Assembly (NCBI GenBank): GCA_025829515.1
Contig: GCA_025829515.1_4865.1
Length of the DNA: 64,000 nucleotides
Reading direction: 5' to 3' (one strand)
Source of the DNA: a phage
Shown here: one piece after another, positions 8,059 to 56,047 of the stretch
How the letters are laid out: each line of letters opens with the position of its first letter
Numbering within the stretch: the stretch's first letter is position 1
Translations under genes and position numbers: made by a program
The notes under the pieces: model-generated
Told to the model about the DNA's origin: nothing
The model's database searches: none
The model's input: only the letters and a program-made list of their open reading frames with translations

Positions 8059-8700
8059 ATGGAAGCACTTAAGTATAAGTTGTTAGAGAAGCCGTGGTTT
8101 ATCCTCACGGATGATTTCCATTTCGAGTTTACGTTGCGCAGCCTCTATCGTGAACACGCCGGAATGGATGCGATGGTAGCATTAGCAGGTCTGCATCCGG
8201 ATACCCCGTTATGGGTAACGGTACCGAAAGGATTTGTGACGGACCTGGCAAGCATTCCAGAAGCGTTACGTCCTATCCTGCATCCGGATGGGCCTTGGGC
8301 TGCTGCCGCTTGTGTGCATGATTTGTTTTACCAGAAACGTTCATCGGTAGGCTTTTACCCTGACACTGTCGAAGGTAATCTATCTCGTGCATGTGACAAA
8401 ACATTCGCTGACCTGATGTTCTTACGTATCATGGAGGCATTAGGCGTTGACACCTTTATTCGTAAGTCCTTCTACCATGCCGTTCACGAGTTTGGTTGGC
8501 CGTCCTATGTAGACGATAACTCTAAGGTGGTTTATAGCCGGCCGGTAGAAAAGACGTTGTCCTATAATCGCAACTACCTGTTCTTTAGAACGTCGCGTAC
8601 GTTAGCGATTCCTGAACACGAACGTGTTGACATTACTAATGGGCAACCGGTAAACGTGCAGTATTTGAATATCAAACGTGCGTTCCTGACTACCCCTTAA
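8059..8700 (+). CDS. DUF1353-like phage protein (213 aa)
   Basis: VPKGFVTDLASIP...AAAACVHDLFY resembles the DUF1353 signature (VPxGFxTDGASIP...HD); GAGG RBS. Confidence 0.5.
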   Translation: MEALKYKLLEKPWFILTDDFHFEFTLRSLYREHAGMDAMVALAGLHPDTPLWVTVPKGFVTDLASIPEALRPILHPDGPWAAAACVHDLFYQKRSSVGFYPDTVEGNLSRACDKTFADLMFLRIMEALGVDTFIRKSFYHAVHEFGWPSYVDDNSKVVYSRPVEKTLSYNRNYLFFRTSRTLAIPEHERVDITNGQPVNVQYLNIKRAFLTTP

Positions 8701-8709
8701 GGAGAGAAA

Positions 8710-9225
8710 ATGTTTCATCCGAATCCTGCCAACTTCGCGTTAAAAGAGTTGATGCCGCAGGAGTACATCGCGAAATACGGTGAAGGTGCTATTCGTTTCC
8801 TTAATCCGTTACTGCTAATCTCGCTCCAACAGATTCGTAATCGTTTTGGGCGGATGGTGATTTTAACCAGTTCCCAGCAACAGCGTAGTCTGCGTACCCT
8901 GCAGTTCTTTATTAATCAAGAGAAACCAAAGGGTGGAGATTGGCAAACTCGTGCAAACAAACTGTACGCCGAATCAGGCAGTATGCATAAATTCGGTAAT
9001 GCGTTTGATGCAACAATGCTTGATACTCCGTTGCAGAAAGTACACGACTATATTGCCGCGAACCCTAACGAGTTTCCGTTTATTCACTTTATCGAGTGCG
9101 ATATTACCTGGCTGCATGTTGACGTACGCAACCAGCCTGATATCACCTTCTGGTCACCGACACGTGGTACCGTTAAAGTGGTTAAGCAACAACCCATCGA
9201 TTGGAGCAAGCTAGTTAAAATCTAA
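8710..9225 (+). CDS. peptidase M15-family (VanY / L-alanoyl-D-glutamate peptidase-like) cell-wall hydrolase
   Basis: HKFGNAFDAT and WLHVDVRN motifs match the H-x-x-G-x-A-x-D and H-V-D/E zinc-ligand motifs of M15 phage endolysins; AAGGAGAG RBS. Confidence 0.6.
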   Translation: MFHPNPANFALKELMPQEYIAKYGEGAIRFLNPLLLISLQQIRNRFGRMVILTSSQQQRSLRTLQFFINQEKPKGGDWQTRANKLYAESGSMHKFGNAFDATMLDTPLQKVHDYIAANPNEFPFIHFIECDITWLHVDVRNQPDITFWSPTRGTVKVVKQQPIDWSKLVKI

Positions 9226-9350: not shown

Positions 9351-9842
9351 TTATTTATTTTCTTCTAACGGAACAATCGTAATCGGAGTAGGAACTTCAC
9401 CGATAAACCCGCTGCTGCAGCGAAAGAATGTCATCCCTTTACCTTCGCCGGTATACGGGTTCACATCCGAAAAAGAGTAAGTGGGGCTATCGTTTACGGT
9501 TTTATTAATACGGTAATAACGCTCACCTGTGGTGGTGTTAACATTCCCGTCGATTTTGCCAATTGTATCTTTAAACATCATCGGTGACTCTAGTTTGCCA
9601 CCGTCCCACGTTGCTACCCAGTTTGCACCCACATCCATTACTGTTACTGACCGCGGCATCATCTGTAGATTGTCCAGAACCGGACGGTAGTCTATAAACT
9701 TCTCCTGCGTCCCTGTGCATGTATAAATCACCAAGTCGTGATTCTTTACTGGTGTGGCGCTAAATTGTCCTATGTTGCTTGGCGACTGAACACAACCGGC
9801 CAACAGGTTTATAATCGCGAGTACGATAAATAGACGTTTCAT
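9351..9842 (-). CDS. putative lipoprotein (163 aa)
   Basis: N-terminal signal peptide with lipobox LAGC (MKRLFIVLAIINLLAGCVQS); RBS present. Confidence 0.55.
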   Translation of the reverse strand: MKRLFIVLAIINLLAGCVQSPSNIGQFSATPVKNHDLVIYTCTGTQEKFIDYRPVLDNLQMMPRSVTVMDVGANWVATWDGGKLESPMMFKDTIGKIDGNVNTTTGERYYRINKTVNDSPTYSFSDVNPYTGEGKGMTFFRCSSGFIGEVPTPITIVPLEENK

Positions 9843-37511: not shown

Positions 37512-37913
37512 ATGACTATCAAGAAGTTCTTACAAACAGTAGTAGTTCTGGCCGCATGTGGTATCGCAGCAACTTATGCTTTCGATAAGCCAGACGTGAC
37601 TGAATACACATCAGCTGATTCGGATTATGGCATTGCGCCGAATGAAAAACCGGAACTGATGCGTGAGGTCGAACAGTTACAAATCTACAGACTGACGGAC
37701 GGTAAGAACTGCACAGGGCTGGTTATCGCTGATAAGAAATTGAAAATGTATCAGCGGTTAATCGACATATCGTGCAATCAACCAAAAGTCACCTCGGTCA
37801 GTGTATCGCCACTGGAATTACCGAATTTGGTTGCTGTGAGCTTTTATCACAACGATGTGCTCGTCGGTCGCATCACCCTCAATCGTGGAGATATCAAAAA
37901 TGAAATGCAATAA
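37512..37913 (+). CDS. small secreted protein / lipoprotein, Cys-containing family member 1 (133 aa)
   Basis: N-terminal signal sequence with possible lipobox LAAC; first of four tandem secreted small proteins. Confidence 0.45.
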   Translation: MTIKKFLQTVVVLAACGIAATYAFDKPDVTEYTSADSDYGIAPNEKPELMREVEQLQIYRLTDGKNCTGLVIADKKLKMYQRLIDISCNQPKVTSVSVSPLELPNLVAVSFYHNDVLVGRITLNRGDIKNEMQ

Positions 37914-38391
37914 CGTTAATCGCCACTTGGCCAAAGTGGTGCTTTTTACTGTGCTGTTGATGGCAGTTGTTGTTGGGCTACGGATTTCTAAGGCGCACGC
38001 TGACGAATTCAGCGGGTTCCAGGGCAGTATTAACGGCAGCATTCCAGCATATACCCGCACCATCAATCTTAATGATAAGCCGTTCTGGTGCAATGCGCGT
38101 AAGCTGCTTAAGAAACAGTGTCGTGTAGTTGACATATCCTTCAACGGACGTGTCGCTATCGTACACCGTCCGGGCGATAAAGATTGCCCAGGTGGTTGGT
38201 GGGGTGCAGTCGACCGTCACAACGGTGACGCGTTATGGCTTATCCCTAATCGTGATGAACTATCAGTGGAGAAAATTTGCAGCAAAGATTTCAGGGCCGG
38301 TTTTGTACAGCGACCGGATACCAAAACTCTGGCATCCATCGCTATGTACTACGGTATGGAAACCATCAAAACAATCGACTATTCAGAATAA
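37900..38391 (+). CDS. small secreted protein, Cys-containing family member 2 (about 163 aa)
   Basis: Start chosen at ATG 37900 (MKCNNVNRHLAKVVLFTVLLMAVVVG signal peptide). PFWCNA...C..V...DCPGGWW motifs are similar to ORF 38414. Confidence 0.5.
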   Translation: MKCNNVNRHLAKVVLFTVLLMAVVVGLRISKAHADEFSGFQGSINGSIPAYTRTINLNDKPFWCNARKLLKKQCRVVDISFNGRVAIVHRPGDKDCPGGWWGAVDRHNGDALWLIPNRDELSVEKICSKDFRAGFVQRPDTKTLASIAMYYGMETIKTIDYSE

Positions 38392-46275: not shown

Positions 46276-46998
46276 ATGTTTCGCACCATTTTATTTCTTC
46301 TGGTAGCAATGACTACGTTCAACAGCAACGCTTCTTACCAGACCACCAGTAACAAACACCAAAAAGAATTCGTCCTTATCCAGGACCAGTTCAATGAGAT
46401 TAAACCTCTCATCGTCACCGCATCTCGAAAACAAGGCGTACATGCCGGGATGCTCGCGACCACCATTTATCGTGAATCCCGTTTTAATAAAAACGTGGGT
46501 AAGAATAAATCGAGCAGTGCTAGTAGTGTTGTCCAAATGACGACAGGCACTAAACGCTCCATGATACGTCTGTATGGGAAACAACTTAACATCCCAAAGA
46601 ATGCGGACCTTAATAAACCGAAGTATGCTGTACAGCTTGCTGCCGTTTACATGAAACACATCGAGGATCATCTGACAAAACAACTCAAACGCAAGCCGAG
46701 CACAGCCGAAATCGCTTTAGGCTACCGCTTCGGTGAGGGTGCTGCTGTTGCGATGATTAAAAAGAAATCACCGGTCGGGAAACGCTGGATGGCCAGCTAC
46801 CGAAAAGACGCAGCATTCTACGGTGCGAAAATGACACCACCGAAAGCTGAAACACGTCAGCTTGCTTTTGCGAAGGAAGACCGCGACCAACGCGTCGCTG
46901 AGCTTCAGAAAATCTGGGATACGCTGTACACCAAAATATCACCTGCGGCCGGTACATTACTGGCAAATAACACTATCATGAAAGGAGCATTGCTTTGA
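46276..46998 (+). CDS. secreted lytic transglycosylase-like (SLT-domain) protein, 240 aa
   Basis: Signal peptide MFRTILFLLVAMTTFNSNA; RESRFN (catalytic E-S), VVQMT (compare GLMQ) and LGYRFGEGAA (compare AYNAG) resemble the SLT domain motif order. Confidence 0.4.
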   Translation: MFRTILFLLVAMTTFNSNASYQTTSNKHQKEFVLIQDQFNEIKPLIVTASRKQGVHAGMLATTIYRESRFNKNVGKNKSSSASSVVQMTTGTKRSMIRLYGKQLNIPKNADLNKPKYAVQLAAVYMKHIEDHLTKQLKRKPSTAEIALGYRFGEGAAVAMIKKKSPVGKRWMASYRKDAAFYGAKMTPPKAETRQLAFAKEDRDQRVAELQKIWDTLYTKISPAAGTLLANNTIMKGALL

Positions 46999-47593: not shown

Positions 47594-47630
47594 GGTCAGA
47601 CCTTCGGGTCTGACCACCTTTTATTTAATT
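47594..47630 (+). terminator. rho-independent terminator (GGTCAGACC-TTCG-GGTCTGACC, T-run)
   Basis: Perfect 9-bp stem, TTCG loop, followed by ACCTTTTATTT. Confidence 0.6.
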
Positions 47631-47639
47631 CTTGGGTGT

Positions 47640-47906
47640 GTGTTCGTGAAACGTTTAATAAATTTTCTCTACTGGATGGAGAAACGCTATAGCCACAACA
47701 TTCCGATGATGTATAGTTTGTTATTCTCCACGGTAATGTTGGTAATCGGTGCGATCGTCGCACATCTGATGGAACTCACGTCCCCATGGGCGCAACTCTT
47801 TCTTACCATCTGGATGTTGTTCTCAGGCTACCACATACGTGGTTTCATAACCCGATTCTTTCGCTGGCGGAGTACCTGGCACGTCTTTAATTCCGACCGT
47901 AACTAG
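47640..47906 (+). CDS. small membrane protein (88 aa)
   Basis: Two hydrophobic helices (LLFSTVMLVIGAIVAHLM; LFLTIWMLFSGY). Confidence 0.4.
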   Translation: MFVKRLINFLYWMEKRYSHNIPMMYSLLFSTVMLVIGAIVAHLMELTSPWAQLFLTIWMLFSGYHIRGFITRFFRWRSTWHVFNSDRN

Positions 47907-47966: not shown

Positions 47967-49100
47967 ATGCAATTTCCAATTTCCGTAATCGAAGATATGG
48001 CTCGTGTAGTACGTGACCGTGCGTATGTGCTTAGCTACGAAGGTATTCGTGCATATTCAGAAGCTCTGATTGCACAACACGTCACTGGCACCGGTGTTAT
48101 CAACCCGGATCTTTACAATGCGCTGGTCGATAACAATGTGGAGGCTTATCTGCCGCTGCCGCACCTGCGTAATAAGTTGTGCCTTTCTTCTCAAACTCTT
48201 CAGTTTGATAACCTGCCGCCACTGAAATATTCGCCAGATGACCGTTGGGGAAGTATGCTGGGCGTAGCTTTCCAAAATTGCCACGCGCCTTATAACTGGT
48301 CTATTCTCGTTGAAGGTGTTGATGGCGTCTGGTATGCCATTGCACATTCTGACGGATTCTTCTTCGAACCAGGTGAGTTGATTAAACCAGTAAGTGCCCC
48401 ACAAGGCCGTGCTAAGGTTGGGCATTGTTACATTGAATTGACTCATGTCCAGTGGACTATCGAAGACTGGCGTGCTGCCTCCGTTATCTTCGGTGACGGT
48501 AAACCACACTCAGTTACTTTCGAGCGTTGTGAAGCAGAGCATGTTGAAGAGACTGACAATGACGAAGTGGGAGATCGTTACGCGCCGCTGGAAGAGTGCC
48601 GTAACATCGCGAACATCGACTGGGTGAAAGTCTTTACGGCCAACCCCGGTTTCCGTGGCCAGACTATCAACCCCGGCGAAGTAACCTGGGAAGGTTTCGT
48701 ACAACTCGCAGATAAACTCGGTTATGACGTGTGGGATTACACCTACAAACGTCCATACCCGAATGCGTCGGAAGATGAAGACCACGATGAAATCATTCTG
48801 GAAAACCTGGCTGATATCGAAAACGTGTTCATCGATGATGAAATCTTCATCACCCTCGGCATTGAGCGTCCGAAATCAACCGCATATCCGGTATCGGTTG
48901 CCAACGTTATTCAGGAACTGGGCAAGATGCAGGAGCAGACCGTCGAAGTGAAAATCGACGAAGAGCAAATGCATATCGCTGCACAGGTACAGAAAACTCT
49001 GAACCTGGATAAGCTGTACGCGGAAATCCGCAAGCAGCCGAAAAAGAAACGTACTGCTGCCACAATCAAAGCAATGATGCGTGAAATTATCGGCAAGTAA
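47967..49100 (+). CDS. hypothetical protein (about 377 aa)
   Basis: Start chosen at ATG 47967 (AAGGA RBS); the track start is TTG at 47943. Confidence 0.5.
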   Translation: MQFPISVIEDMARVVRDRAYVLSYEGIRAYSEALIAQHVTGTGVINPDLYNALVDNNVEAYLPLPHLRNKLCLSSQTLQFDNLPPLKYSPDDRWGSMLGVAFQNCHAPYNWSILVEGVDGVWYAIAHSDGFFFEPGELIKPVSAPQGRAKVGHCYIELTHVQWTIEDWRAASVIFGDGKPHSVTFERCEAEHVEETDNDEVGDRYAPLEECRNIANIDWVKVFTANPGFRGQTINPGEVTWEGFVQLADKLGYDVWDYTYKRPYPNASEDEDHDEIILENLADIENVFIDDEIFITLGIERPKSTAYPVSVANVIQELGKMQEQTVEVKIDEEQMHIAAQVQKTLNLDKLYAEIRKQPKKKRTAATIKAMMREIIGK

Positions 49101-49119
49101 TGCGATAAAAAATAAAAGC

Positions 49120-49145
49120 CTACCTACTCCCTTGGGAGTAGGTAG
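49120..49145. terminator. bidirectional terminator hairpin (CTACCTACTCCC / GGGAGTAGGTAG)
   Basis: Stem of about 11 bp flanked by AAAAAATAAAAG upstream and TTCTTTTTTTCTTT downstream; between convergent genes. Confidence 0.6.
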
Positions 49146-49157
49146 TTCTTTTTTTCT

Positions 49158-49781
49158 TTAATTTGTTAACCCGTTATCTTTCAGGATTTTCAACATCGCA
49201 TCATTCAACGCCTGCAGTTCTTGATTCTGCTTAGTGAGTGTTGCAACTTGTTCTGTCAGAGGAACCTGCTCACGGATTTTGGCTTTACGCACCGCTTCCA
49301 TTTGCAAGTGTTCTTCTTCCGTCACCGTCCCTTCGTAATCCATCGATGTGATGTCCACACGTGCATCGATTCCTAAACCGCGTTCTAAGATGCTTTTCAG
49401 GTCGTTCGTTAGCAGTGTGACATCGACGTATTCGGGTATTAATGCCAGGTCAATAACCACCACATTGCGTCTATAATTTAACCCATTCAGTCCAGGATAC
49501 GTCTCAATGTACGTATCAGGCAACTCGTAGACTTGACCGTCCCTCGACTTTAATGTTACAATCGAGGCTTCGACATTAGCGTCGCTGATATAGTCGTCAC
49601 GAGTTAGGCCGACAGGTTTATAATACTTGTTATAAACGTCAATATTATTACGTTGGAGTTTCGGAAAGTTCTGTACCGCGTCAACACGGTAAATCACTTT
49701 ATCTGGCAACGTATAAGGTGCCTTAACCTTGAACAACCCCTCAAGGTTAACCTGAGGCGTGTTAGGCAACAGTTGTGCCAT
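49158..49781 (-). CDS. hypothetical protein (207 aa)
   Basis: ORF track; C-terminal coiled-coil-like region; co-oriented with the next gene. Confidence 0.45.
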   Translation of the reverse strand: MAQLLPNTPQVNLEGLFKVKAPYTLPDKVIYRVDAVQNFPKLQRNNIDVYNKYYKPVGLTRDDYISDANVEASIVTLKSRDGQVYELPDTYIETYPGLNGLNYRRNVVVIDLALIPEYVDVTLLTNDLKSILERGLGIDARVDITSMDYEGTVTEEEHLQMEAVRKAKIREQVPLTEQVATLTKQNQELQALNDAMLKILKDNGLTN

Positions 49782-49791
49782 TTAACCCTCC

Positions 49792-51171
49792 TTAGGCTTC
49801 TGGCTCTGCCGCAGGGACATCCCAAACAGCTTTGCGGGCCAAGACACGATACTCCACGTTATCGAATTCGAAGACGTAGAAGTAAACGTTAGGATCGACG
49901 TCGTCTACGAGCTTCACGATATCCAGCGGGGTGGAATGTGGGTGATACTCTTCCGCTGCGATTAACGCCTGGAAGAACAAGTCCAGCCACTCGGTGGTTT
50001 TCTTCGACATTCTCGCAATATCTGCATTGTTAGTGCCGATTAATGCGTAGTCGGGAATCGTATCGTGCAGGGTCGTTTTGCGTGAATCGTTTTCAGGGCC
50101 TGCGATAACTACAGCGTTTAGTGATTTATAGATGGACGGTAAATCCGTTACATCGGTAGTTGGAGTTGAGATTGCTCCACTATTTTTTTCCGTAATGGTT
50201 TGAACAGTCCACTCCCCAAATCGGGAGATTGCTTTGACCCAGAAATCATATGGGAGAATCGGCGAGTATAATGCCGCAACGTCTTCCTCATTTGGAATCC
50301 CACGAATTGACCAACCGGGAACAATTGTGAACTTGGTGGTCGTAAAGATTTCTGGGAACACCTTGACACCCAACGCCACAGTAAAACTGGAGTTTGCCAA
50401 AATGTAATCACGCAACGCTTGTTTAATCCTGCTCGGGTTACGACCCGCGCGTCCGTAGATGATAGCCGACATCGGTATCGGTAAGGTGGAATCAAAGTCT
50501 TCCTGGTCGTGCCAAGTATAGATGTTAGTAATCAGGCTAGTGTACGGATAACCGTCAGCTAATTCGTTAATCTTATTATGGTGATCCGGAAGGTTGAACC
50601 CTTCCATTGCCTTTTCGACTACAGATTTCACAGCCAAGAAAGTATCAACCGGTAATATCGGCATTTGGACTTCAATTTCAAATCCGGTATAGTCCTGATT
50701 GAAATCTTCATCAGCAAACCAGAGAATAATCTGGTTATTCACATCAGATGGGTCTTCGACTTTATCTGCTGTGGTTTCAAGTTTCCAACTGACCCAACGT
50801 GGGAACCAGTTACTGTTAGTCTGAATCATCGCGCCAGACTGAACACCGCTGATGACACTATTAAATTGCCCCAACAGCAAACGCTGGAATTCAACTTCGT
50901 CGTTTCTTAAGTTGCCCAGGATAGACTGTTGGTAGATCCATTGGGAAACAGTAAGAACGTGGTCGCTAAAGACGGCCGGGGTCTTAATAGGCAACTCGTC
51001 ACGTTTAGAAGTAAAAGCAACCAGTTCCACCTGCAGATTTTCTTTAGTAAAATACTGCTTGCTTTTAGCGAACGAATATGACAGCTCAGACAACTCACCT
51101 ACCGGAGCGGTGTTGCCAGGGCCATTATCAATCAGAGCCGCTATTTGAATAAAGCCTTGTAAATCATACAT
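49792..51171 (-). CDS. hypothetical protein (459 aa)
   Basis: ATG with GGAGAG RBS; long ORF. Confidence 0.5.
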   Translation of the reverse strand: MYDLQGFIQIAALIDNGPGNTAPVGELSELSYSFAKSKQYFTKENLQVELVAFTSKRDELPIKTPAVFSDHVLTVSQWIYQQSILGNLRNDEVEFQRLLLGQFNSVISGVQSGAMIQTNSNWFPRWVSWKLETTADKVEDPSDVNNQIILWFADEDFNQDYTGFEIEVQMPILPVDTFLAVKSVVEKAMEGFNLPDHHNKINELADGYPYTSLITNIYTWHDQEDFDSTLPIPMSAIIYGRAGRNPSRIKQALRDYILANSSFTVALGVKVFPEIFTTTKFTIVPGWSIRGIPNEEDVAALYSPILPYDFWVKAISRFGEWTVQTITEKNSGAISTPTTDVTDLPSIYKSLNAVVIAGPENDSRKTTLHDTIPDYALIGTNNADIARMSKKTTEWLDLFFQALIAAEEYHPHSTPLDIVKLVDDVDPNVYFYVFEFDNVEYRVLARKAVWDVPAAEPEA

Positions 51172-51189
51172 AATTAAAAACTCTCCGAG

Positions 51190-51705
51190 GTGAGCATGAT
51201 AGCATCAGTTTTCAAACTGCTTCCATTCTTACAGATGCTGTGGGAAGCATTTAAACCGGGCGAGGGGGAGAAAGTAACACGAGCCGGGAAAATAGTGACA
51301 CTAGTGATAGTGGCACTGATCGCGTTCTCTGCATTTGTCTCATATGCCTATATTGTTCAATACCACACACTGGTTAGCGTTCAATCGCGTACTCAGTATC
51401 TGGAGATATCCTATAAGGAGCTAAAAGAGAAGTCCGATCATAGCGAAGTGGAGAACAATAAGTTGTACGATCGTCTCTTCACGTGCCTGGGTTCTCGACC
51501 GCCATATGATGGTACCAAATCTCCAACAGGAACAGGCACTGAGGCCGCGGTTCCGCCTGTAGATCTCAAGCCGGTAACACCGCCGGCACCGTTAAATCCG
51601 TCTAGCCCACCTGCCAAGAAATACCAGGCCGCTTCTCGCCCGGTAGGGTCGCAGGAGGCAAATGATTTCCGACAGGAGATTATCAGTACGCTTAATAATC
51701 CATGA
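51190..51705 (+). CDS. membrane-anchored coiled-coil protein, i-spanin-like candidate (171 aa)
   Basis: N-terminal TM helix (IVTLVIVALIAFSAFVSYAYIV), then a charged coiled-coil-like region and a Pro-rich tail; immediately followed by a lipoprotein gene. The start is GTG 51190 or ATG 51196. Confidence 0.3.
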   Translation: MSMIASVFKLLPFLQMLWEAFKPGEGEKVTRAGKIVTLVIVALIAFSAFVSYAYIVQYHTLVSVQSRTQYLEISYKELKEKSDHSEVENNKLYDRLFTCLGSRPPYDGTKSPTGTGTEAAVPPVDLKPVTPPAPLNPSSPPAKKYQAASRPVGSQEANDFRQEIISTLNNP

Positions 51706-51714
51706 GGAGTATAC

Positions 51715-52194
51715 ATGAAGTTATTTTTGGTGGCGATACTGGTGCTATTGTTGACAGGATGCCCTGGAGCCATCCGTCACGTAGACCCAGATTACTCCTC
51801 AACCGGAGATTGGCCTTTTCGTCCTTTAGAACACCCACCAGTTTATGCTGGTGGGAACAGTCCTGAGGTGAAAAAGCTGGCAGGGAAAATGTTTGTTGCG
51901 GATGTGAACGCTTATGCTTATTACGTTTATCTGTACGCTAAGTCGTTGAACAATTACGCAGAAGCTAAGGGGTGGCGCACCCCGATGGCCGCACCGCTTT
52001 GTGAAGAGTTTATTCGCCCCACTCTTCATGATATACCCTCCGGGATATATCTCGACCCTGGTTCTCGTAGCCCTCAAGACATTAGTCGTGATTTGTCACG
52101 ACAGATTAAGTCTCTCATTCGCAGCTATCGCGAAGACAGAGAGTCTTTTAATCATGCCTACGAACGGCACAAAAGTAGTTGCCTTGTGCAATGA
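51715..52194 (+). CDS. lipoprotein, o-spanin-like candidate (159 aa)
   Basis: Signal peptide with lipobox LTGC; GAGGAG RBS. Longer than typical o-spanins, so the assignment is tentative. Confidence 0.35.
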   Translation: MKLFLVAILVLLLTGCPGAIRHVDPDYSSTGDWPFRPLEHPPVYAGGNSPEVKKLAGKMFVADVNAYAYYVYLYAKSLNNYAEAKGWRTPMAAPLCEEFIRPTLHDIPSGIYLDPGSRSPQDISRDLSRQIKSLIRSYREDRESFNHAYERHKSSCLVQ

Positions 52195-52198
52195 AAAC

Positions 52199-52237
52199 TC
52201 CCTCTTACCTTCGGGTAAGAGGGGATTTCCTTTTTTT
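52199..52237 (+). terminator. rho-independent terminator (CCCTCTTACC-TTCG-GGTAAGAGGG, T7 run)
   Basis: 10-bp stem, TTCG loop, followed by GATTTCCTTTTTTT. Confidence 0.6.
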
Positions 52238-52239
52238 AC

Positions 52240-52270
52240 GTTAATAGTCAATAGTGTGATATATAATCTC
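52240..52270 (+). promoter_or_regulatory. promoter-like element (TGTGATATATAATC) immediately after a terminator
   Basis: TATAAT hexamer at 52262-52267 with TG a few nt upstream, 17 nt before the ATG of gene 52284; no clear -35. Confidence 0.3.
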
Positions 52271-52283
52271 GTGGAGAGTTGAA

Positions 52284-53003
52284 ATGACATATCCTAAAAT
52301 TCTGCCTGTTTTAACACCAACCGTGGTTGTTGGGACGGACTTAGAAACTCTGGCCTTGCGTCCAGATGCCTACATCTTAACGTTGGCAAACGTGGCATTC
52401 GATGTTCCGACAATGAAAATGATCGGTTCATGTTACCACAAAATCGACCCCAACGATGCAAAAGCAAAAGAAATCTTCTACATCGATCCACAAACGGTCG
52501 GTTATTGGGAAGGTAAAGGCGACCCCGAATACGCACCGAGCGAGAAAGCACGTATTGAAGCGTTTTCTGGGACCACTCCACTGCCAGAAGCACTGTGGGC
52601 GGCCAAAAAATGGTTGGATGATCTGGGCAACGTGAAAATGGTTATCACCATGCGCGGTCCCGATTTCGATGCTCCAATTCTGATGAACGCATTCGCGCAG
52701 TGCGATATCCCGCCGGGCAAGTACCGCAAGTTTTCTATATTGGACTCTGACCGGACTGCAGAACGTATTGCATATGCGTTTGGCCTGGAACCGAACTGGC
52801 ACGCAGAAGCGCACCACTGGACCCGTGGCAAAGAAGCGTACGAGCATAACGCTAACTTTGATGCTGCGAAGGAAGCGTATTCTACGGCACGCATCTATCA
52901 TTTGGCCCTGGTCGCGCGTACGTACGGCTTCGAACGCATGTTAGAAGCCCACCGCGAAATGTGCACAGGTGAATACATTCCACCGCAGTTGCGAGGAGAA
53001 TAA
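52284..53003 (+). CDS. DEDDh-type 3'-5' exonuclease (DnaQ-like fold), 239 aa
   Basis: Exo I GTDLET (D-x-E), Exo II GPDFDAPIL, Exo III HNANFDA (H-x4-D) in the canonical order; GGAGAG RBS. Confidence 0.55.
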   Translation: MTYPKILPVLTPTVVVGTDLETLALRPDAYILTLANVAFDVPTMKMIGSCYHKIDPNDAKAKEIFYIDPQTVGYWEGKGDPEYAPSEKARIEAFSGTTPLPEALWAAKKWLDDLGNVKMVITMRGPDFDAPILMNAFAQCDIPPGKYRKFSILDSDRTAERIAYAFGLEPNWHAEAHHWTRGKEAYEHNANFDAAKEAYSTARIYHLALVARTYGFERMLEAHREMCTGEYIPPQLRGE

Positions 53004-54517
53004 TGAAAGACGTCGACGTAGCGGTTATTTATACCGATGGTAGTCATACTGAGTCCCCGAAAGGTTCGGGGGCTGGTATTCATGGTTATTTATTCAACAA
53101 CGGAGATTTGGAAGACAGTCAGGCTTATAGCCATCCGGGTGTTTCAGAACGGATTACCACTGTTGGATACAAAAAAGTGCCGCAGGATGTGAAGTGTCCG
53201 GAGTTGCCGGACACCGTTCAATTTGTCGACGCCGTTATTCCCGTTCCGAAAGAGTTCTACTCAGATGTGGGCGAGTTAATCGCCTTCATCACGTTGTTTG
53301 AGAACGCGCCCTTCCGCGCGAAGAACTATATCATCTACGTGGATGCCAGTTACGTTGTAAACACTTTTAACGAGTGGATAGACGGGTGGCATAAACGTGG
53401 TTGGGTTCGTGCTGACGGTACTCCGCTGGCGAACAAAGAACTTATTGTTCGTATCTGGGAAATCAAACAGCAGATGAAAAAAGAAGGACGGGGTGTTAAG
53501 GTTATCAAAATCAAAGGACACTCCGGCCACTACGGTAACGACCGGGCGGACGAATTGGCTAGAAAAGGTTCAGCCATCACAGCGACCAACGACGGCGTTC
53601 CATATCAGCCGTACTGGTCGAAGGATGAGTTGCCTGCATCCGCGGAACCCGAGCCCATCGCCGCTGGGATGAACCTTGCGGCATATCCGCCGGTTTGTAC
53701 GGTTAAATATTGCTATCCGTTGGTGAACGAGGACCATCCTACTGTAAAAGTGAAAGATGAAACTTTCTATTACATGTTTGGTGGCAACCATGCAAAGAAC
53801 AAGGACGACTTGGTGTTTATTGGGAAAATGATTCCTGATGCACACTTTTCCGTAATGTTCACTAAACAACCGTGGGATAACATCTACACGATTGTAAACA
53901 ACCACGCCGCCCTGGCATGGAAAGATACACCGAAGATGCGGCAGTATGATCCAATCGGTGTTGTTAACAATGAGTTCGTTAAACGTAAGAAGTTCGTTGA
54001 CGTGGCAGGTGATGGATTACCGGCAGACAAGATGCATTTCAGTGGAGAAGATTCCAATGTCTGGTTCTTTGAAGACCTGGCCATCTCCAGAATGCTTCGC
54101 CCGCCCTTATTGTCGTACCGTGCGCTGGATATTCGTGACGAACTCGCTACAACGTTGAGAGATGTTCTGCATCAGGAAAAGGGTTATGTCTTAAATGATA
54201 TTACTGACTTGTTGTTCGATGACAAAGGTAAGCCTGTTAAGGAATACTACCGTAGCGTCGATAAGTCAATAACGTTAAAGATTGACTTTCCGATGGGTAA
54301 ACGACCTGTCTCGGTTATTTTGACGCGTGGTATTGATATTCCATCGCGTACGGAAATCAACCGTATTAAAGAACCCGAAGGCCGTTATTACATCGCGGTG
54401 TGTCGTCCTGAAAAATACTACATCCGTTACTTCTTAATCTATATCGGTAAAGAGTATCATGGGTTGTGGTGTGCGTATTACGCAAACCGTCGCATACTGC
54501 GAGAAGAAGAGGTGTAA
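53003..54517 (+). CDS. RNase H (type 1) domain protein with about 300-aa C-terminal extension (504 aa)
   Basis: N-terminal VIYTDGS...GAGIHGY, and KIKGHSGHYGNDRADELARKG matching the RNase H1 catalytic C-terminal motif (H..G..N..AD.LA); TAATG overlap with the upstream gene. Confidence 0.6.
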   Translation: MKDVDVAVIYTDGSHTESPKGSGAGIHGYLFNNGDLEDSQAYSHPGVSERITTVGYKKVPQDVKCPELPDTVQFVDAVIPVPKEFYSDVGELIAFITLFENAPFRAKNYIIYVDASYVVNTFNEWIDGWHKRGWVRADGTPLANKELIVRIWEIKQQMKKEGRGVKVIKIKGHSGHYGNDRADELARKGSAITATNDGVPYQPYWSKDELPASAEPEPIAAGMNLAAYPPVCTVKYCYPLVNEDHPTVKVKDETFYYMFGGNHAKNKDDLVFIGKMIPDAHFSVMFTKQPWDNIYTIVNNHAALAWKDTPKMRQYDPIGVVNNEFVKRKKFVDVAGDGLPADKMHFSGEDSNVWFFEDLAISRMLRPPLLSYRALDIRDELATTLRDVLHQEKGYVLNDITDLLFDDKGKPVKEYYRSVDKSITLKIDFPMGKRPVSVILTRGIDIPSRTEINRIKEPEGRYYIAVCRPEKYYIRYFLIYIGKEYHGLWCAYYANRRILREEEV

Positions 54518-54518
54518 C

Positions 54519-55259
54519 ATGTTGCGAGTCGTGAGTGAATCGCTCACGCTCCACACACAAAGTCTGATTAACTGTGTGGAGCAATACGGATGGATGTCGT
54601 GGATGGCAACGAACCGTGAGTTTGGTGCTGCGCCCATGGAAGATTACGACGTGTTGTACAAGTGGGGATTTGAAGCGGCTTGTGATGTTGTGGCAGAGCT
54701 GGTTACCGAAACAATTGCGCGTTACAACGCAAGATGTGATGAACCGATGCCTAAACAAGTCCCGCCGCAAATACCTCCGCTACCGACAATCGATCGTGAG
54801 CATTGTCGAATCTGGACAATGGAAGAGTTGTACGACGAACACGTTAGAATGCTGAAACCGAACGAGCTAATAACCGGTGCGTTGAACTGGTTCTTACATC
54901 GGTTCTGGACAGAGTTGGTCGATGTGGCGGGTGACGAAGATAATTGTTCTCAGGTTATTTGGTACGATCGAGCGATGTTTCATCGCAGTCTTAAAGATCG
55001 TAGTCTCTGCAACCTGTATATTGTTGACCCGTGTGAAGACATTGTAAAGGTAGCAGAAGGTAACTCTTATTCCGACTTGGTGATGCCCGTGGTAGAAAAA
55101 CCGATGGGTATTTTCCTGCAGGGAGACGCTTGGGTTTTAACGGATGATATCTCGGGCTACCTGCTGGACCCGGATGACATTCACTCGGACGAACCTGATA
55201 CCATCGAGTATTTTCACTTTACAGAACAGGCAGCACGCTTCTTGCATCTCTTAAAGTAA
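54519..55259 (+). CDS. hypothetical protein (about 246 aa)
   Basis: Start chosen at ATG 54519 (GAGG RBS), 2 nt after the RNase H stop; the track start at 54459 would overlap it. Confidence 0.45.
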   Translation: MLRVVSESLTLHTQSLINCVEQYGWMSWMATNREFGAAPMEDYDVLYKWGFEAACDVVAELVTETIARYNARCDEPMPKQVPPQIPPLPTIDREHCRIWTMEELYDEHVRMLKPNELITGALNWFLHRFWTELVDVAGDEDNCSQVIWYDRAMFHRSLKDRSLCNLYIVDPCEDIVKVAEGNSYSDLVMPVVEKPMGIFLQGDAWVLTDDISGYLLDPDDIHSDEPDTIEYFHFTEQAARFLHLLK

Positions 55260-55262
55260 TCT

Positions 55263-55286
55263 GAGATAGATATTATCTACAGGGAC
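55263..55286 (+). promoter_or_regulatory. recurring AGATATTATC element (copy B), promoter/operator candidate
   Basis: GAGATAGATATTATCTACAGGGAC; the motif ends 36 nt before ATG 55313. Confidence 0.35.
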
Positions 55287-55312
55287 GTAACCTTAAGGAG
55301 AATTTATTCACG

Positions 55313-56047
55313 ATGCTTAAAGTCGAAGTGCCAGTGCTTTTAAACCTCACGCCCCAGTTCTTTGAAGCGTTGTTCGAAAAGCATTGGCCCGCGTTCGCGA
55401 AGAACGAACTAAAGGATAACCCACAGTGGTATCCACTGCGCGATGAATTCAAGTACACAGCCATCAACGTCTGTATAGAAGTCTTCACTGCGTGGTTACA
55501 AGAGATGTACGACTGCATCAACACCGAACGGTTGTTCACGCTAGAACATGTAGAGATTAATGTTGTTGACGTCTACGAAGGTTACACCTACGAAGAAGGC
55601 ATTACTGCCACGGGGTTAAGCCAACAAGACGTTGAAGAACAAATCTTTGCGTGGATCGAGTGGTTTACGGAAAAGTTGATGCTGGCTGATTTTGTCACGC
55701 AGGTGGAAGATGTATTCATCCCAATGTACGAGCGGTTAGCTGAGATACGTCGTAACCATCGTCTGCTCGGTTACTGGTATGACACTTATACCACCTCCTC
55801 AACACTGTGGTCTTCCGCTACTGCCGCATTTGGCATAACTGATGGCGATTACGATGTCGTTCATTCCGGCCCTTGGCAGTATGGTTTCGGCACCCTGTGG
55901 CACGAGCTGACCGATGCCATGTGTCTGGACTTTTATCTGTGTGAAGGTAAGTTTTACACGGATAACTGCGTGAGCCAAATTCCGAATGGTGCGATGGTGG
56001 TGATGTGTCGCATCCGTAAAGAAGTCGCTGAGAAACTAAACTACTGA
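55313..56047 (+). CDS. hypothetical protein (244 aa)
   Basis: ATG with AAGGAG RBS; preceded by a GATATTATC motif. Confidence 0.5.
   Translation: MLKVEVPVLLNLTPQFFEALFEKHWPAFAKNELKDNPQWYPLRDEFKYTAINVCIEVFTAWLQEMYDCINTERLFTLEHVEINVVDVYEGYTYEEGITATGLSQQDVEEQIFAWIEWFTEKLMLADFVTQVEDVFIPMYERLAEIRRNHRLLGYWYDTYTTSSTLWSSATAAFGITDGDYDVVHSGPWQYGFGTLWHELTDAMCLDFYLCEGKFYTDNCVSQIPNGAMVVMCRIRKEVAEKLNY

What the first reader, a model, noticed from the sequence alone, without database searches (positions are those of the whole stretch)
51190..52194. Possible two-component spanin pair located away from the muralytic genes
A type-II membrane protein with periplasmic coiled-coil and Pro-rich tail (51190-51705) is followed 9 nt later by a lipoprotein gene with lipobox LTGC (51715-52194), the arrangement expected for an i-spanin / o-spanin pair. 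The lipoprotein is unusually long (159 aa), so the assignment is tentative.
Basis: inference. Interest (0 to 1): 0.35.

Follow-up and report, generated by a model that had tools for sequence, protein, structure and literature searches.

The report
Spanin-like membrane/lipoprotein gene pair
A giant Salmonella phage carries an adjacent inner-membrane protein gene and outer-membrane lipoprotein gene that look like the two-part "spanin" used to burst the host's outer membrane. A relative of the lipoprotein also sits in phage phiKZ beside a different, proven spanin, so the function is likely but not settled.

Summary
The window comes from a SPN3US-like giant Salmonella phage. ORF A (true start ATG 51196, 169 aa) has one N-terminal TMD, a ~45-residue periplasmic helix, a Pro-rich linker and a conserved C-terminal helix. 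ORF B (51715-52194) is a lipoprotein (lipobox LTGC, no Asp at +2).

For the spanin reading:
- The pair is conserved with the same adjacency in 73 phage records and 8 metagenomic loci.
- It is the only TMD-protein/lipoprotein pair in the whole SPN3US-type genome.
- Its Cronobacter phage CR5 homologs are already listed as a "separated" i-spanin/o-spanin pair in the Kongari 2018 spanin census, on bioinformatic grounds only.
- It is not far from a muralytic gene: an SLT transglycosylase lies 4.2 kb upstream in a conserved gene block.

Against it:
- The lipoprotein is homologous to phiKZ gp156, which occupies the same slot next to the RNase H-like gene. phiKZ's experimentally validated spanins are different genes (gp141/141.1).
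- Ralstonia phage RSF1 also carries both a slot pair and a phiKZ-type cassette.

So the pair is either a spanin that became the sole one in the SPN3US clade (my best reading, ~0.5), or a conserved envelope-bridging complex with another role (~0.33). Either way it is a member of a known kind and has not been tested experimentally.

The parts
51187..51190 (+). Shine-Dalgarno GAGG for ORF A, 5 nt before ATG 51196
   Evidence: Sequence read. It overlaps the GTG at 51190, which argues against the GTG as the start.
51196..51705 (+). ORF A (169 aa; SPN3US gp204 ortholog; PHROG 8719): i-spanin-like type-II inner-membrane protein
51199..51249 (+). ORF A aa 2-18: N-terminal amphipathic helix (motif KLLPFLQ.L.E.F), predicted cytoplasmic or in the membrane plane
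   Evidence: AF2 helix 2-18. Hydrophobic moment 1.09, mean KD 1.34. Conserved in alignment A1.
51289..51357 (+). ORF A aa 32-54: transmembrane domain KIVTLVIVALIAFSAFVSYAYIV (predicted N-in/C-out)
   Evidence: KD 2.2. A TMD at aa 29-39 in all 13 partners.
51358..51492 (+). ORF A aa 55-99: periplasmic helix (putative coiled coil) ending at Cys97 (nt 51484-51486), invariant in the 11 sequences of A1
   Evidence: AF2 pLDDT 80-88. Cys97 invariant in A1. Coiled coil predicted for the CR5 homolog in the census.
51493..51645 (+). ORF A aa 100-150: Pro-rich, disordered, length-variable linker
   Evidence: 13 Pro in 51 residues. pLDDT below 50. Variable in A1.
51649..51696 (+). ORF A aa 152-167: conserved C-terminal helix (FRQEI..LN), candidate contact site for the lipoprotein
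   Evidence: AF2 helix. A '...[IL]N' C-terminal motif is kept in all 13 partners. The contact role is inferred.
51704..51709 (+). Shine-Dalgarno GAGGAG for ORF B, overlapping the ORF A stop codon (TGA 51703-51705); translational coupling is plausible
   Evidence: Sequence read; SD also flagged.
51715..52194 (+). ORF B (159 aa; SPN3US gp205 ortholog; PHROG 8165): outer-membrane lipoprotein, o-spanin-like
51751..51762 (+). Lipobox L-T-G-C (aa 13-16); Cys16 is the predicted lipidation site and Pro is at +2 (no Lol-avoidance Asp)
   Evidence: 38 of 41 family members have a lipobox; Asp at +2 in 0 of 38.
51862..51966 (+). ORF B aa 50-84: conserved helix 1 (VADVNAYAYYVYLYAKSLNNYA)
   Evidence: AF2 helix at low confidence. 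Invariant block in A2 and A3.
52000..52002 (+). ORF B Cys96, invariant in A2; first Cys of the conserved pair
   Evidence: It aligns with the phiKZ gp156 Cys in 'KKCMVFELP'.
52072..52182 (+). ORF B aa 120-156: conserved helix 2 ending at invariant Cys156 (nt 52180-52182), 3 residues from the C-terminus
   Evidence: In the family the last Cys is 2 residues from the end in 36 of 38 members and 3 in 2 of 38, and the median Cys-Cys spacing is 59.
52199..52240 (+). Intrinsic-terminator-like hairpin (11-bp stem, TTCG loop) plus T-run, directly after ORF B
   Evidence: sequence.
46276..46998 (+). Context: SLT-domain transglycosylase ('putative endolysin', SPN3US gp198) with a signal-peptide-like N-terminus; conserved upstream neighbour of the block
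   Evidence: Synteny.
47640..47906 (+). Context: 88-aa ORF with two hydrophobic segments and a basic tail (SPN3US gp200); holin-like candidate, untested
   Evidence: sequence. Weak DUF4231 hit below the cut-off. The holin-like reading is inference only.
49158..51171 (-). Context: two inverted virion genes (DUF7194 protein gp202; essential tail-associated gp203) that separate the SLT region from the pair in all relatives
   Evidence: gp203 is essential and tail-associated (PMC5105663).

Best explanation
ORF A and ORF B encode a type-II inner-membrane protein and an outer-membrane lipoprotein. I propose they meet in the periplasm to form an envelope-spanning complex, and that in this SPN3US-like phage the complex is the two-component spanin with 'separated' gene architecture, like T4 PseT.3/PseT.2.

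Proposed mechanism:
- Both proteins are exported during infection. ORF A inserts N-in/C-out through its single TMD. ORF B is lipidated at Cys16 and sorted by Lol to the inner leaflet of the outer membrane.
- The conserved C-terminal helix of ORF A, held on a flexible Pro-rich tether, binds the Cys-stapled helical domain of ORF B through the peptidoglycan mesh.
- When the muralytic enzyme destroys the murein, the complexes are free to move laterally and collapse. This brings the inner and outer membranes together and destroys the outer membrane as the last step of lysis.

Shown here: the gene pair, its sequence features, its conservation and synteny, and its uniqueness in the genome. Inferred: the topology, the physical interaction, the disulfides, the timing and the lytic function.
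For: - Architecture meets the spanin criteria. ORF A has a single N-terminal TMD, a periplasmic helix, a linker and a C-terminal helix. ORF B has a lipobox and no Asp at +2. The lipoprotein gene lies 9 nt downstream, with its SD overlapping the upstream stop codon.
- Co-occurrence. The two genes occur in the same number of records, 73, with the same organism breakdown, in the phage collection. They are adjacent (-4 to +15 nt) in 13 diverse pairs, including 8 metagenomic loci.
- Whole-genome scans of the SPN3US-type genome find no other lipoprotein with a TMD partner, no u-spanin and no gp141-type i-spanin. Only 13% of phages of Gram-negative hosts lacked a spanin in the census (91 of 677).
- The CR5 orthologs CR5_183/184 are listed as a separated i-spanin/o-spanin pair in the Young-lab census.
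- Conserved periplasmic Cys residues (one in ORF A within the 11 sequences of A1, two in ORF B) recall the disulfide-linked lambda Rz/Rz1 dimers. The Cys data are; the analogy is from my knowledge of Berry et al.
- The pair belongs to a conserved block that starts with an SLT transglycosylase. In two relatives (L015, L031) only two inverted virion genes lie between them.
- Long, partly helical o-spanins are normal for jumbo phages, including the validated phiKZ gp141.1.
- The summed extended lengths of the periplasmic parts are ample to cross a periplasm of roughly 25 nm (lengths; the periplasm width is from my general knowledge).
Against: - No member of either family has been tested experimentally.
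- The lipoprotein family includes phiKZ gp156 in the same genomic slot. phiKZ lysis is served by the unrelated, experimentally validated gp141/141.1. About 65 Pseudomonas phage records carry gp156 and about 64 carry gp141.
- RSF1 has a full-length slot pair and also a phiKZ-type i-spanin/o-spanin/holin cassette. The RSF1 slot pair is linked only by position, architecture and Cys pattern, not by significant sequence similarity.
- Desertfox, Proteus phage 10 and KpLz-2_45 have only a TMD/coiled-coil protein in the slot, and the related Agricanvirus Ea35-70 has its census spanins elsewhere.
- In phiKZ the counterparts are co-transcribed with the essential middle gene 155.
- The coiled-coil signal is modest.
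- There are no hits to any named spanin family in Pfam, NCBIfam or PHROGs.
- The AF2 model of the lipoprotein has low confidence.
Confidence: 0.5

Rival explanations
1. The pair is a conserved envelope-bridging complex of phiKZ-related (nucleus-forming) phages with a function other than outer-membrane disruption. Possible roles are superinfection exclusion, protection against an incoming or self-secreted muralytic enzyme (in the manner of T4 Imm/Spackle), or sensing or regulating lysis timing. Under this reading the SPN3US clade would have no canonical spanin, or would disrupt the outer membrane by another route.
For: - The homologous lipoprotein (phiKZ gp156) and a positional TMD partner (gp156.1) are kept alongside a validated, unrelated spanin pair in about 65 Pseudomonas phage records.
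- RSF1 shows the same duality, with a full-length slot pair.
- The slot keeps a TMD protein even where there is no lipoprotein.
- The phiKZ counterparts lie in a middle, ChmA-dependent operon with the essential RNase H-like gene.
- The phiKZ lysis paper reports a lysis-inhibition-like phenotype with no periplasmic sensor identified.
- The SLT gene in this clade has a signal-peptide-like N-terminus. A periplasmic partner that restrains it is conceivable, but this is pure inference.
- 13% of phages lack identifiable spanins.
Against: - Nothing positive points to any specific alternative function: there are no PADLOC, Pfam, NCBIfam or PDB matches.
- The architecture is exactly that of a spanin.
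- T4 shows that spanin genes need not be late or sit in a lysis cassette (from my knowledge of T4 pseT.3/pseT.2).
- phiKZ gp156.1 is truncated, consistent with decay of a redundant copy.
- Homology of the TMD partners, and of the RSF1 pair, with the window proteins is not statistically supported.
- This reading leaves a large virulent myophage of Salmonella without any device for disrupting the outer membrane.
Confidence: 0.33
2. The slot pair is an ancestral spanin that is functional in all lineages, so phiKZ-like phages and RSF1 carry two spanin systems. These would be redundant, or specialised for different hosts or conditions, and the SPN3US clade simply retains the older one.
For: - The same slot and architecture occur across Salmonella, Erwinia, Cronobacter and Pseudomonas phages, and possibly Ralstonia.
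- The census paper proposes duplication followed by deletion as the route by which spanin gene architecture changes.
- The gp141-type cassette has a narrow distribution: 64 records, all Pseudomonas, in the phage collection, plus an RSF1 cassette recognised only by architecture and a C-terminal motif.
Against: - The census text I read does not report any phage with two spanin systems.
- phiKZ gp156.1 lacks the linker and most of the periplasmic domain.
- The phiKZ five-gene cassette is reported as necessary and sufficient for lysis.
Confidence: 0.12
3. The two genes encode unrelated envelope proteins that are merely neighbours, with no complex and no joint function.
For: - No interaction has been shown.
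- The length-compensation test was not significant (r = -0.51, p = 0.07, n = 13).
- Some phages have the TMD protein alone.
Against: - The two genes co-occur in the same 73-record count with tight adjacency, and probably translational coupling, across sequences down to about 30% identity.
- They are the only type-II TMD protein and one of only two lipoproteins in about 265 genes.
Confidence: 0.05

Closest known systems
Cronobacter phage CR5 CR5_183 / CR5_184, listed as a 'separated' i-spanin/o-spanin pair in Kongari et al. 2018 (PMC6139136, supplementary tables)
   Same: These are true homologs (35% and 30% identity; A1 and A2). They share the same slot, the same 9-nt gap, the same TMD position, the same Cys positions and the same lipobox.
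   Different: The assignment is bioinformatic only. SPN3US-like phages themselves were not in that census, and the census did not note the relationship to phiKZ gp156.
Phage T4 PseT.3 / PseT.2 (prototype of the 'separated' two-component spanin architecture)
   Same: [quoted passage not shown]
   Different: I did not run a direct comparison with the T4 proteins; no named spanin family in Pfam, NCBIfam or PHROGs matches the window pair. The T4-family o-spanin sequence shown in the census supplement is about 99 aa. The window lipoprotein is 159 aa with two long predicted helices, and the membrane partner has a long Pro-rich disordered linker.
Lambda Rz / Rz1
   Same: A type-II inner-membrane protein with a helical periplasmic domain plus an outer-membrane lipoprotein, with conserved periplasmic cysteines. 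The mechanism I propose (C-terminal contact through the murein, then collapse and membrane fusion after murein degradation) is borrowed from this system.
   Different: Lambda has the embedded gene architecture. From my knowledge, mature Rz1 is only about 40 residues, Pro-rich and unstructured, and Rz has two coiled-coil segments. No named Rz or Rz1 family matches the window pair.
phiKZ gp141 / gp141.1 (experimentally validated spanins; Manohar et al. 2026, PMC12894885)
   Same: A related phage lineage, and a long o-spanin (120 aa) with some helix. gp141 is similar in size (168 aa) and has a short N-terminal segment before the TMD.
   Different: The genes overlap and sit in a compact cassette with the holin gp142, the regulator gp143 and the endolysin gp144. 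Similarity to the window pair is not significant (hhalign probability 0.2% for gp141 and 10% for gp141.1, the latter over the signal peptide and linker only). By tblastn the family is confined to Pseudomonas phage records, plus an RSF1 cassette recognised by architecture and a C-terminal motif only.
phiKZ gp156.1 / gp156 (uncharacterised; co-transcribed with the essential RNase H-like gp155)
   Same: The same genomic slot, between the divergent gp157/gp203-type virion gene and the RNase H-like gene. gp156 is a lipoprotein whose C-terminal Cys-to-Cys domain is homologous to ORF B (HMM E 4e-10; hhalign 87%). gp156.1 has the same layout as the N-terminal part of ORF A: an amphipathic N-terminus, a TMD and a helix.
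   Different: gp156.1 is only 96 aa, lacks the Pro-rich linker, and is not significantly similar in sequence. The N-terminal half of gp156 does not align. The pair coexists with a validated spanin pair.

Membership tests
Two-component spanin (functional class; Rz/Rz1-like, criteria of Summer 2007 / Kongari 2018) | i-spanin is an integral inner-membrane protein with a single N-terminal TMD in type-II (N-in/C-out) topology | tested here: met
   One TMD at aa 32-54 (KD 2.2), with K/R clustered on the N-side, and no second TMD after it. AF2 gives a continuous helix over 29-99. Topology is predicted, not measured. The 31-residue amphipathic N-terminus is unusual.
Two-component spanin (functional class; Rz/Rz1-like, criteria of Summer 2007 / Kongari 2018) | The i-spanin periplasmic domain is dominated by alpha-helix with coiled-coil propensity | tested here: inconclusive
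   There is a 45-residue helix at high pLDDT plus a 16-residue C-terminal helix, but about 45% of the periplasmic part is a disordered Pro-rich linker. The heptad a/d hydrophobic fraction is only 0.54. The census predicts one coiled coil in the CR5 homolog.
Two-component spanin (functional class; Rz/Rz1-like, criteria of Summer 2007 / Kongari 2018) | o-spanin is an outer-membrane lipoprotein (lipobox, lipidated Cys, no inner-membrane retention signal) | tested here: met
   Lipobox LTGC with Cys16 and Pro at +2. In the family, 38 of 41 members have a lipobox and 0 of 38 have Asp at +2. Lipidation and sorting themselves were not tested.
Two-component spanin (functional class; Rz/Rz1-like, criteria of Summer 2007 / Kongari 2018) | The o-spanin gene is embedded in, overlapping, or immediately downstream of the i-spanin gene | tested here: met
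   The gap is 9 nt and the SD overlaps the upstream stop codon. The gap is -4 to +15 nt in 13 pairs.
Two-component spanin (functional class; Rz/Rz1-like, criteria of Summer 2007 / Kongari 2018) | [quoted passage not shown] | not testable with these tools
The length-compensation test was inconclusive (r = -0.51, p = 0.07). The conserved C-terminal helix of ORF A is a candidate interface by inference only.
Two-component spanin (functional class; Rz/Rz1-like, criteria of Summer 2007 / Kongari 2018) | Required for outer-membrane disruption: complements lambda Rz-am Rz1-am, and null mutants end as spherical cells | not testable with these tools
   I found no experimental data on any family member in the literature searches.
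Two-component spanin (functional class; Rz/Rz1-like, criteria of Summer 2007 / Kongari 2018) | It is the phage's device for outer-membrane disruption, with no other spanin serving that role (supporting criterion, not strictly defining) | tested here: inconclusive
   Met in the SPN3US-type genome, where it is the sole candidate. Not met for the homolog in phiKZ (validated gp141/141.1 are elsewhere) or for the positional counterpart in RSF1.
Named spanin sequence families (Pfam, NCBIfam and PHROGs Rz / Rz1 / LysB / LysC-type models) | A significant match to a curated spanin profile | tested here: not met
   No Pfam or NCBIfam hit. The PHROG hits are 8719 and 8165, both 'unknown function'. Spanins are extremely diverse, so this lowers membership in those sequence families but not in the functional class.
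phiKZ gp141/gp141.1-type spanin family | Sequence similarity to gp141 or gp141.1, including the C-terminal C-x7-C tail of the i-spanin | tested here: not met
   hhalign probability is 0.2% for gp141 and 10% for gp141.1, the latter over the signal peptide and linker only. ORF A has a single Cys and no C-x7-C tail.
Unimolecular spanin (T1 gp11 type) | An N-terminal lipobox and a C-terminal TMD in one polypeptide | tested here: not met
   ORF B has no C-terminal hydrophobic segment (sequence). The genome scans found no such ORF.
gp205 / phiKZ gp156 lipoprotein family (PHROG 8165; defined here) | A lipobox near residue 15; two further conserved Cys about 59 residues apart, the last one 2-3 residues from the C-terminus; the gene lies between a small TMD-protein gene and the RNase H-like gene of phiKZ-related phages | tested here: met
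   There are 39 representatives in 1.84 billion proteins, with features. Synteny held in the 14 loci from other genomes that were examined (L033 is truncated on its upstream side). phiKZ gp156 scores E 4e-10.

The most novel reading that the evidence does not exclude
The pair is not the lysis spanin. Instead it is a previously unrecognised, lineage-wide envelope-bridging module of phiKZ-related nucleus-forming phages: a small inner-membrane protein plus a Cys-stapled helical outer-membrane lipoprotein, encoded beside the essential RNase H-like gene. It would have a distinct periplasmic job, such as superinfection exclusion or sensing secondary infection for lysis inhibition. The SPN3US clade would then be a spanin-less group of large Salmonella and Erwinia myophages.
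Probability: 0.3. Interest if true: 0.6.

Novelty: new member of a known kind. Interest (0 to 1): 0.38.

Why it matters
If the pair is the spanin, it fills in the missing last step of the lysis pathway for the SPN3US/Seoulvirus group, which is a genetic model for giant phages and a source of Salmonella biocontrol candidates. It would also correct 'hypothetical protein' annotations in more than 70 genomes.

The more interesting point is the conflict uncovered here. The same lipoprotein family sits beside the RNase H-like gene in phiKZ, where a different pair does the spanin job. So either nucleus-forming phages can carry two spanin systems and swap between them, or there is an uncharacterised periplasm-spanning module in this family. 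Both possibilities can be tested directly with an established complementation assay.

Tried and rejected
- **AF2 monomers.** ORF B gave only pLDDT 57 and ORF A 66. I did not run fold searches because long isolated helices at this confidence give meaningless matches.
- **Profile searches.** Searches of both families against PDB sequences, NCBIfam, PADLOC and Pfam gave nothing significant.
- **Homology of the membrane partner to phiKZ gp156.1, RSF1 ORF058 and the Desertfox-type slot proteins.** It is not statistically supported (hhalign; HMM, best E 0.02 for RSF1). I treat these proteins only as positional and architectural counterparts.
- **RSF1 slot lipoprotein against the gp205 family and against gp156.** Not significant once the signal peptide is excluded.
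- **Length compensation between the two periplasmic domains.** There is a trend only (r = -0.51, p = 0.07, n = 13, not phylogenetically corrected), and it disappears when phiKZ and RSF1 are added.
- **Rival spanin candidates rejected:**
  - The orphan lipoprotein at 9351-9842(-) has no TMD partner and lies on the opposite strand to its neighbours.
  - A 54-aa lipobox-like ORF inside the DNA-polymerase-like gp44 has no SD, and its host protein has no TMD.
  - Other lipobox hits are antisense ORFs without an SD.
- **Literature.** Searches for SPN3US spanin, gp204/gp205 and phiKZ gp156 found no functional data.
- **Sigma-70 promoter scan.** Not informative for this phage type: 16 sites found against 11.6 expected.
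Full report
**1. What the window is**

The region 49000-54500 is 99.3% identical to Salmonella phages MET_P1_082_240 and the SPFM series, and 98.3% identical to SPN3US (genus Seoulvirus), a giant phage of about 240 kb related to phiKZ. The two ORFs of the finding correspond to SPN3US_0204 and SPN3US_0205, both annotated 'hypothetical protein'. The same is true in every one of the 73 phage records that contain them. PHROGs places them in families 8719 and 8165, both of unknown function. Pfam, NCBIfam and PADLOC give nothing.

**2. Check of the observation**

Both ORFs are present.

ORF A:
- It should start at ATG 51196, giving 169 aa, not at GTG 51190. A GAGG Shine-Dalgarno lies 5 nt before the ATG and overlaps the GTG.
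- Database homologs are 169 aa.
- SPN3US annotates a start that is too far downstream (471 nt), whereas MET_P1 annotates 510 nt.
- It has an amphipathic N-terminal helix (aa 2-18) and a single TMD (aa 32-54, mean Kyte-Doolittle 2.2).
- The TMD continues as a periplasmic helix to aa 99 (AF2 pLDDT 80-88).
- A disordered linker with 13 Pro in 51 residues follows, and then a C-terminal helix at aa 152-167.

ORF B:
- It begins 9 nt after ORF A, and its GAGGAG Shine-Dalgarno overlaps the ORF A stop codon.
- It has the lipobox LTGC with Cys16 and Pro at +2.
- A Pro-containing linker of about 33 residues follows, and then two long predicted helices (50-84 and 120-156; AF2 pLDDT only 57).
- Two further cysteines, C96 and C156, are invariant in the nine sequences of A2.

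A strong hairpin plus T-run follows the ORF B stop codon at 52199-52240.

**3. Conservation**

Both proteins are found in the same number of records, 73, with the same organism breakdown: Salmonella 33, Erwinia 34, Cronobacter 2, Escherichia 2, Proteus 1 and one 'Enterobacteria' phage.

An exhaustive profile search of 1.84 billion representative proteins with the lipoprotein family found only 39 representatives, all 79-206 aa and most of them 126-206. In a 41-member family set, 38 have a lipobox. None has Asp at +2. The last two Cys are a median of 59 residues apart. The last Cys is 2 residues from the C-terminus in 36 of 38 members.

In the four annotated relatives and eight of the nine metagenomic loci examined, the gene order is the same; the ninth, L033, is cut off on its upstream side. 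The order is:
- SLT transglycosylase, where the locus extends that far upstream;
- 0-4 small genes;
- two inverted virion genes (a DUF7194 protein and the gp203-type tail-associated protein);
- the TMD protein;
- the lipoprotein;
- an exonuclease;
- the RNase H-like gene.

All 13 membrane partners have the TMD at residues 29-39, a helix after it, a variable linker and a C-terminal helix ending in '...[IL]N'. The intergenic distance ranges from -4 to +15 nt.

**4. Is it the phage's spanin? Evidence for**

I assembled a complete SPN3US-type genome from SPN3US segments plus the window. I scanned every ORF from every start codon with a relaxed lipobox rule that also catches phiKZ's LNGC. Only two credible lipoprotein genes with a ribosome-binding site exist:
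- ORF B;
- an orphan at window 9351-9842(-), which has no membrane partner.

A scan for proteins with one N-terminal TMD and at least 50 further residues returned ORF A. It also returned two secreted proteins with cleavable signals, ORF B itself, and one weak non-membrane-like hit. So the pair is the only two-component spanin candidate, and there is no unimolecular one.

In the Young-lab census of 677 phages of Gram-negative hosts, only 91 (13%) had no spanin, and 118 had the separated architecture. That census lists CR5_183/CR5_184 of Cronobacter phage CR5 as a separated i-spanin/o-spanin pair. These are the CR5 orthologs of ORF A and ORF B (35% and 30% identity). The census also shows that long o-spanins are usual in jumbo phages: Ea35-70 167 aa, OBP 157, EL 149, phiKZ 120.

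The pair is also not remote from a muralytic gene. The SLT gene at 46276-46998 is 4.2 kb upstream. In two uncultured relatives (L015, L031) it is separated from the pair only by the two inverted virion genes.

**5. Evidence against**

In phiKZ, the slot between the divergent virion gene gp157 and the RNase H-like gp155 holds two genes:
- gp156.1 (96 aa) has an amphipathic N-terminus, a TMD and a short helix.
- gp156 is a lipoprotein with lipobox LISGC, a Cys in 'KKCMVFELP' and a Cys 2 residues from the C-terminus.

gp156 is homologous to the C-terminal Cys-to-Cys domain of ORF B. hhalign gives 87% probability over 66 columns with both Cys aligned. With a family HMM, gp156 is the top non-seed hit among 2,246 background ORFs, at E 4e-10. 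It scores 2e-7 with a signal-peptide-free model.

Yet phiKZ's spanins are gp141/gp141.1, which lie in a cassette with the holin gp142, the regulator gp143 and the endolysin gp144. They complement lambda Rz-am Rz1-am (PMC12894885) and are not significantly similar to the window pair. gp156-type and gp141-type genes are each found in about 65 Pseudomonas phage records. The phiKZ counterparts are co-transcribed with gene 155, a ChmA-dependent gene highly expressed at 20 min and essential for maturation of the phage nucleus (PMC12571901).

Ralstonia phage RSF1 shows the same duality:
- Its slot holds ORF058 (164 aa), with the same architecture as ORF A, and an unannotated 105-aa lipoprotein with two Cys 61 residues apart.
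- Elsewhere it has a phiKZ-type cassette. ORF097 has an N-terminal TMD and a C-x7-C tail like gp141. ORF096 is a lipoprotein. ORF095 has the single-TMD topology of the gp142 holin.

The RSF1 slot proteins are, however, not significantly similar in sequence to the window proteins. That link rests only on position, architecture and Cys pattern.

In Erwinia Desertfox, Proteus phage 10 and Klebsiella KpLz-2_45 the slot contains only a TMD/coiled-coil protein. The census places the spanins of Ea35-70, which is related to Desertfox, elsewhere in the genome. Serratia phage PCH45 has a classical embedded Rz/Rz1-like pair, and its Rz-like gene is reported as essential by Tn-seq.

**6. Weighing the evidence**

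The architecture, the strict co-occurrence and the absence of any other candidate favour a spanin role in the SPN3US clade. The persistence of a homologous lipoprotein, and of a similar slot pair, next to a canonical spanin cassette in two distant lineages favours a distinct function. It could alternatively mean redundancy followed by decay, and phiKZ gp156.1 is indeed truncated.

My estimates are:
- about 0.5 for 'this is the functional spanin of this phage';
- about 0.33 for 'a conserved envelope-bridging module with another periplasmic role';
- about 0.12 for 'a spanin in all lineages, so phiKZ and RSF1 have two systems';
- about 0.05 for 'no joint function'.

The third reading overlaps with the first as far as the window is concerned.

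**7. Mechanism proposed (inferred)**

ORF A inserts N-in/C-out. ORF B is lipidated at Cys16 and sorted to the outer membrane, since it has no Asp at +2. The conserved C-terminal helix of ORF A sits on a flexible Pro-rich tether. It contacts the helical domain of ORF B, which the two conserved Cys probably staple or dimerise.

The summed extended lengths are about 24 nm for ORF A and about 15 nm for ORF B. This is ample for a periplasm of roughly 25 nm (the width is from my general knowledge). After murein degradation the complexes would collapse and fuse or rupture the membranes, as proposed for lambda Rz/Rz1. Cys97 of ORF A, which is invariant in the 11 sequences of A1, lies at the end of the periplasmic helix. 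That position would suit a homodimer disulfide as in Rz (an analogy from my knowledge).

**8. Novelty**

The kind of system is known, and the family has already been called a spanin once, for CR5, in a supplementary table. What is new here:
- the extension of that call to the SPN3US group, supported by a genome-wide uniqueness test;
- a definition of the lipoprotein family and its Cys signature;
- the recognition that phiKZ gp156 belongs to the family and occupies the same slot while the validated spanins lie elsewhere.

This last point makes the functional assignment an open question that can be tested.

Noticed in passing
window 9351-9842 (-), with 8710-9225 (+) and 8059-8700 (+): A second lipoprotein gene (163 aa, lipobox LAGC, SD AAGG; SPN3US_0159; PHROG 9559, unknown function) stands alone on the minus strand. 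It is convergent with an M15-peptidase-like gene that matches the PHROG 894 'endolysin' family (SPN3US_0158), and it lies next to a DUF1353 gene. It has no membrane partner, so it is not a spanin by architecture. Its role is unknown; receptor masking or exclusion are possibilities.
   Followed up: partly
window 46276-46998 (+) and 47640-47906 (+): The SLT-domain 'putative endolysin' has a signal-peptide-like N-terminus (MFRTILFLLVAMTTFNSNA|SY), unlike phiKZ gp144. This suggests a secreted or SAR-type muralytic enzyme. An 88-aa ORF with two hydrophobic segments and a basic tail lies 640 nt downstream and is a holin or pinholin candidate. Neither is characterised.
   Followed up: partly
window 47594-47615, 49120-49145, 52199-52224: Three very similar strong hairpins (9-11 bp stems, 4-nt loops TTCG or TTGG) followed by T-runs punctuate this region. 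The one at 49120 scores as a terminator on both strands between convergent genes. In all, 22 terminator-like sites were found against 9.2 expected.
   Followed up: no
L001 (SPN3US JN641803.1) 8236-8706, corresponding to window 51235-51705: SPN3US_0204 is annotated from a start codon that lies too far downstream (471 nt). This cuts off the first 13 residues of the conserved N-terminal helix. Phage SEGD1 leaves both genes unannotated.
   Followed up: yes
L021 4117-4434 (+), which is NC_028899.1 59960-60277 (-): Ralstonia phage RSF1 has an unannotated 105-aa lipoprotein ORF (lipobox FLAAC, Cys43 and Cys104) between ORF058 and the RNase H-like gene. It completes a TMD-protein/lipoprotein pair in the same slot as the window pair.
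   Followed up: yes
L024 (NC_028899.1) record positions 92008-93141 (-): RSF1 ORF097, ORF096 and ORF095 are all annotated as hypothetical. They have the features of a phiKZ-type i-spanin (C-x7-C tail), o-spanin (lipobox LSGC) and single-TMD holin, and they lie near the endolysin ORF091.
   Followed up: partly
L008 10185-10598 (-) (phiKZ gp156): The RefSeq start of phiKZ gp156 (translation LVDHMSRK...) is probably 4 codons too early. The MSRKFF... start has a ribosome-binding site and gives a canonical lipoprotein signal peptide.
   Followed up: partly
L019 3976-4386, L020 4040-4384, L022 4025-4387: Proteus phage 10, Erwinia Desertfox and Klebsiella KpLz-2_45 each have a single small TMD/coiled-coil protein, with a similar N-terminal hydrophobic motif, in the slot before the RNase H-like gene, and no lipoprotein. 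This may be a widely conserved membrane protein of nucleus-forming phages. Homology to ORF A is not demonstrable by sequence.
   Followed up: partly
window 37900-38391 (+): A 163-aa protein with a cleavable-signal-like N-terminus (…RISKAHA|DEF) and several Cys is a predicted secreted periplasmic protein of unknown function. SPN3US gp90, which lies outside the window, is similar in type.
   Followed up: no
L018 (PCH45 MN334766.1) record positions 55185-55721 (-): Serratia phage PCH45 has a classical Rz-like type-II membrane protein with a lipoprotein ORF embedded in another frame (record 55214-55534). Neither ORF has a functional annotation in the record; the embedded ORF is absent from the annotated features.
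   Followed up: partly
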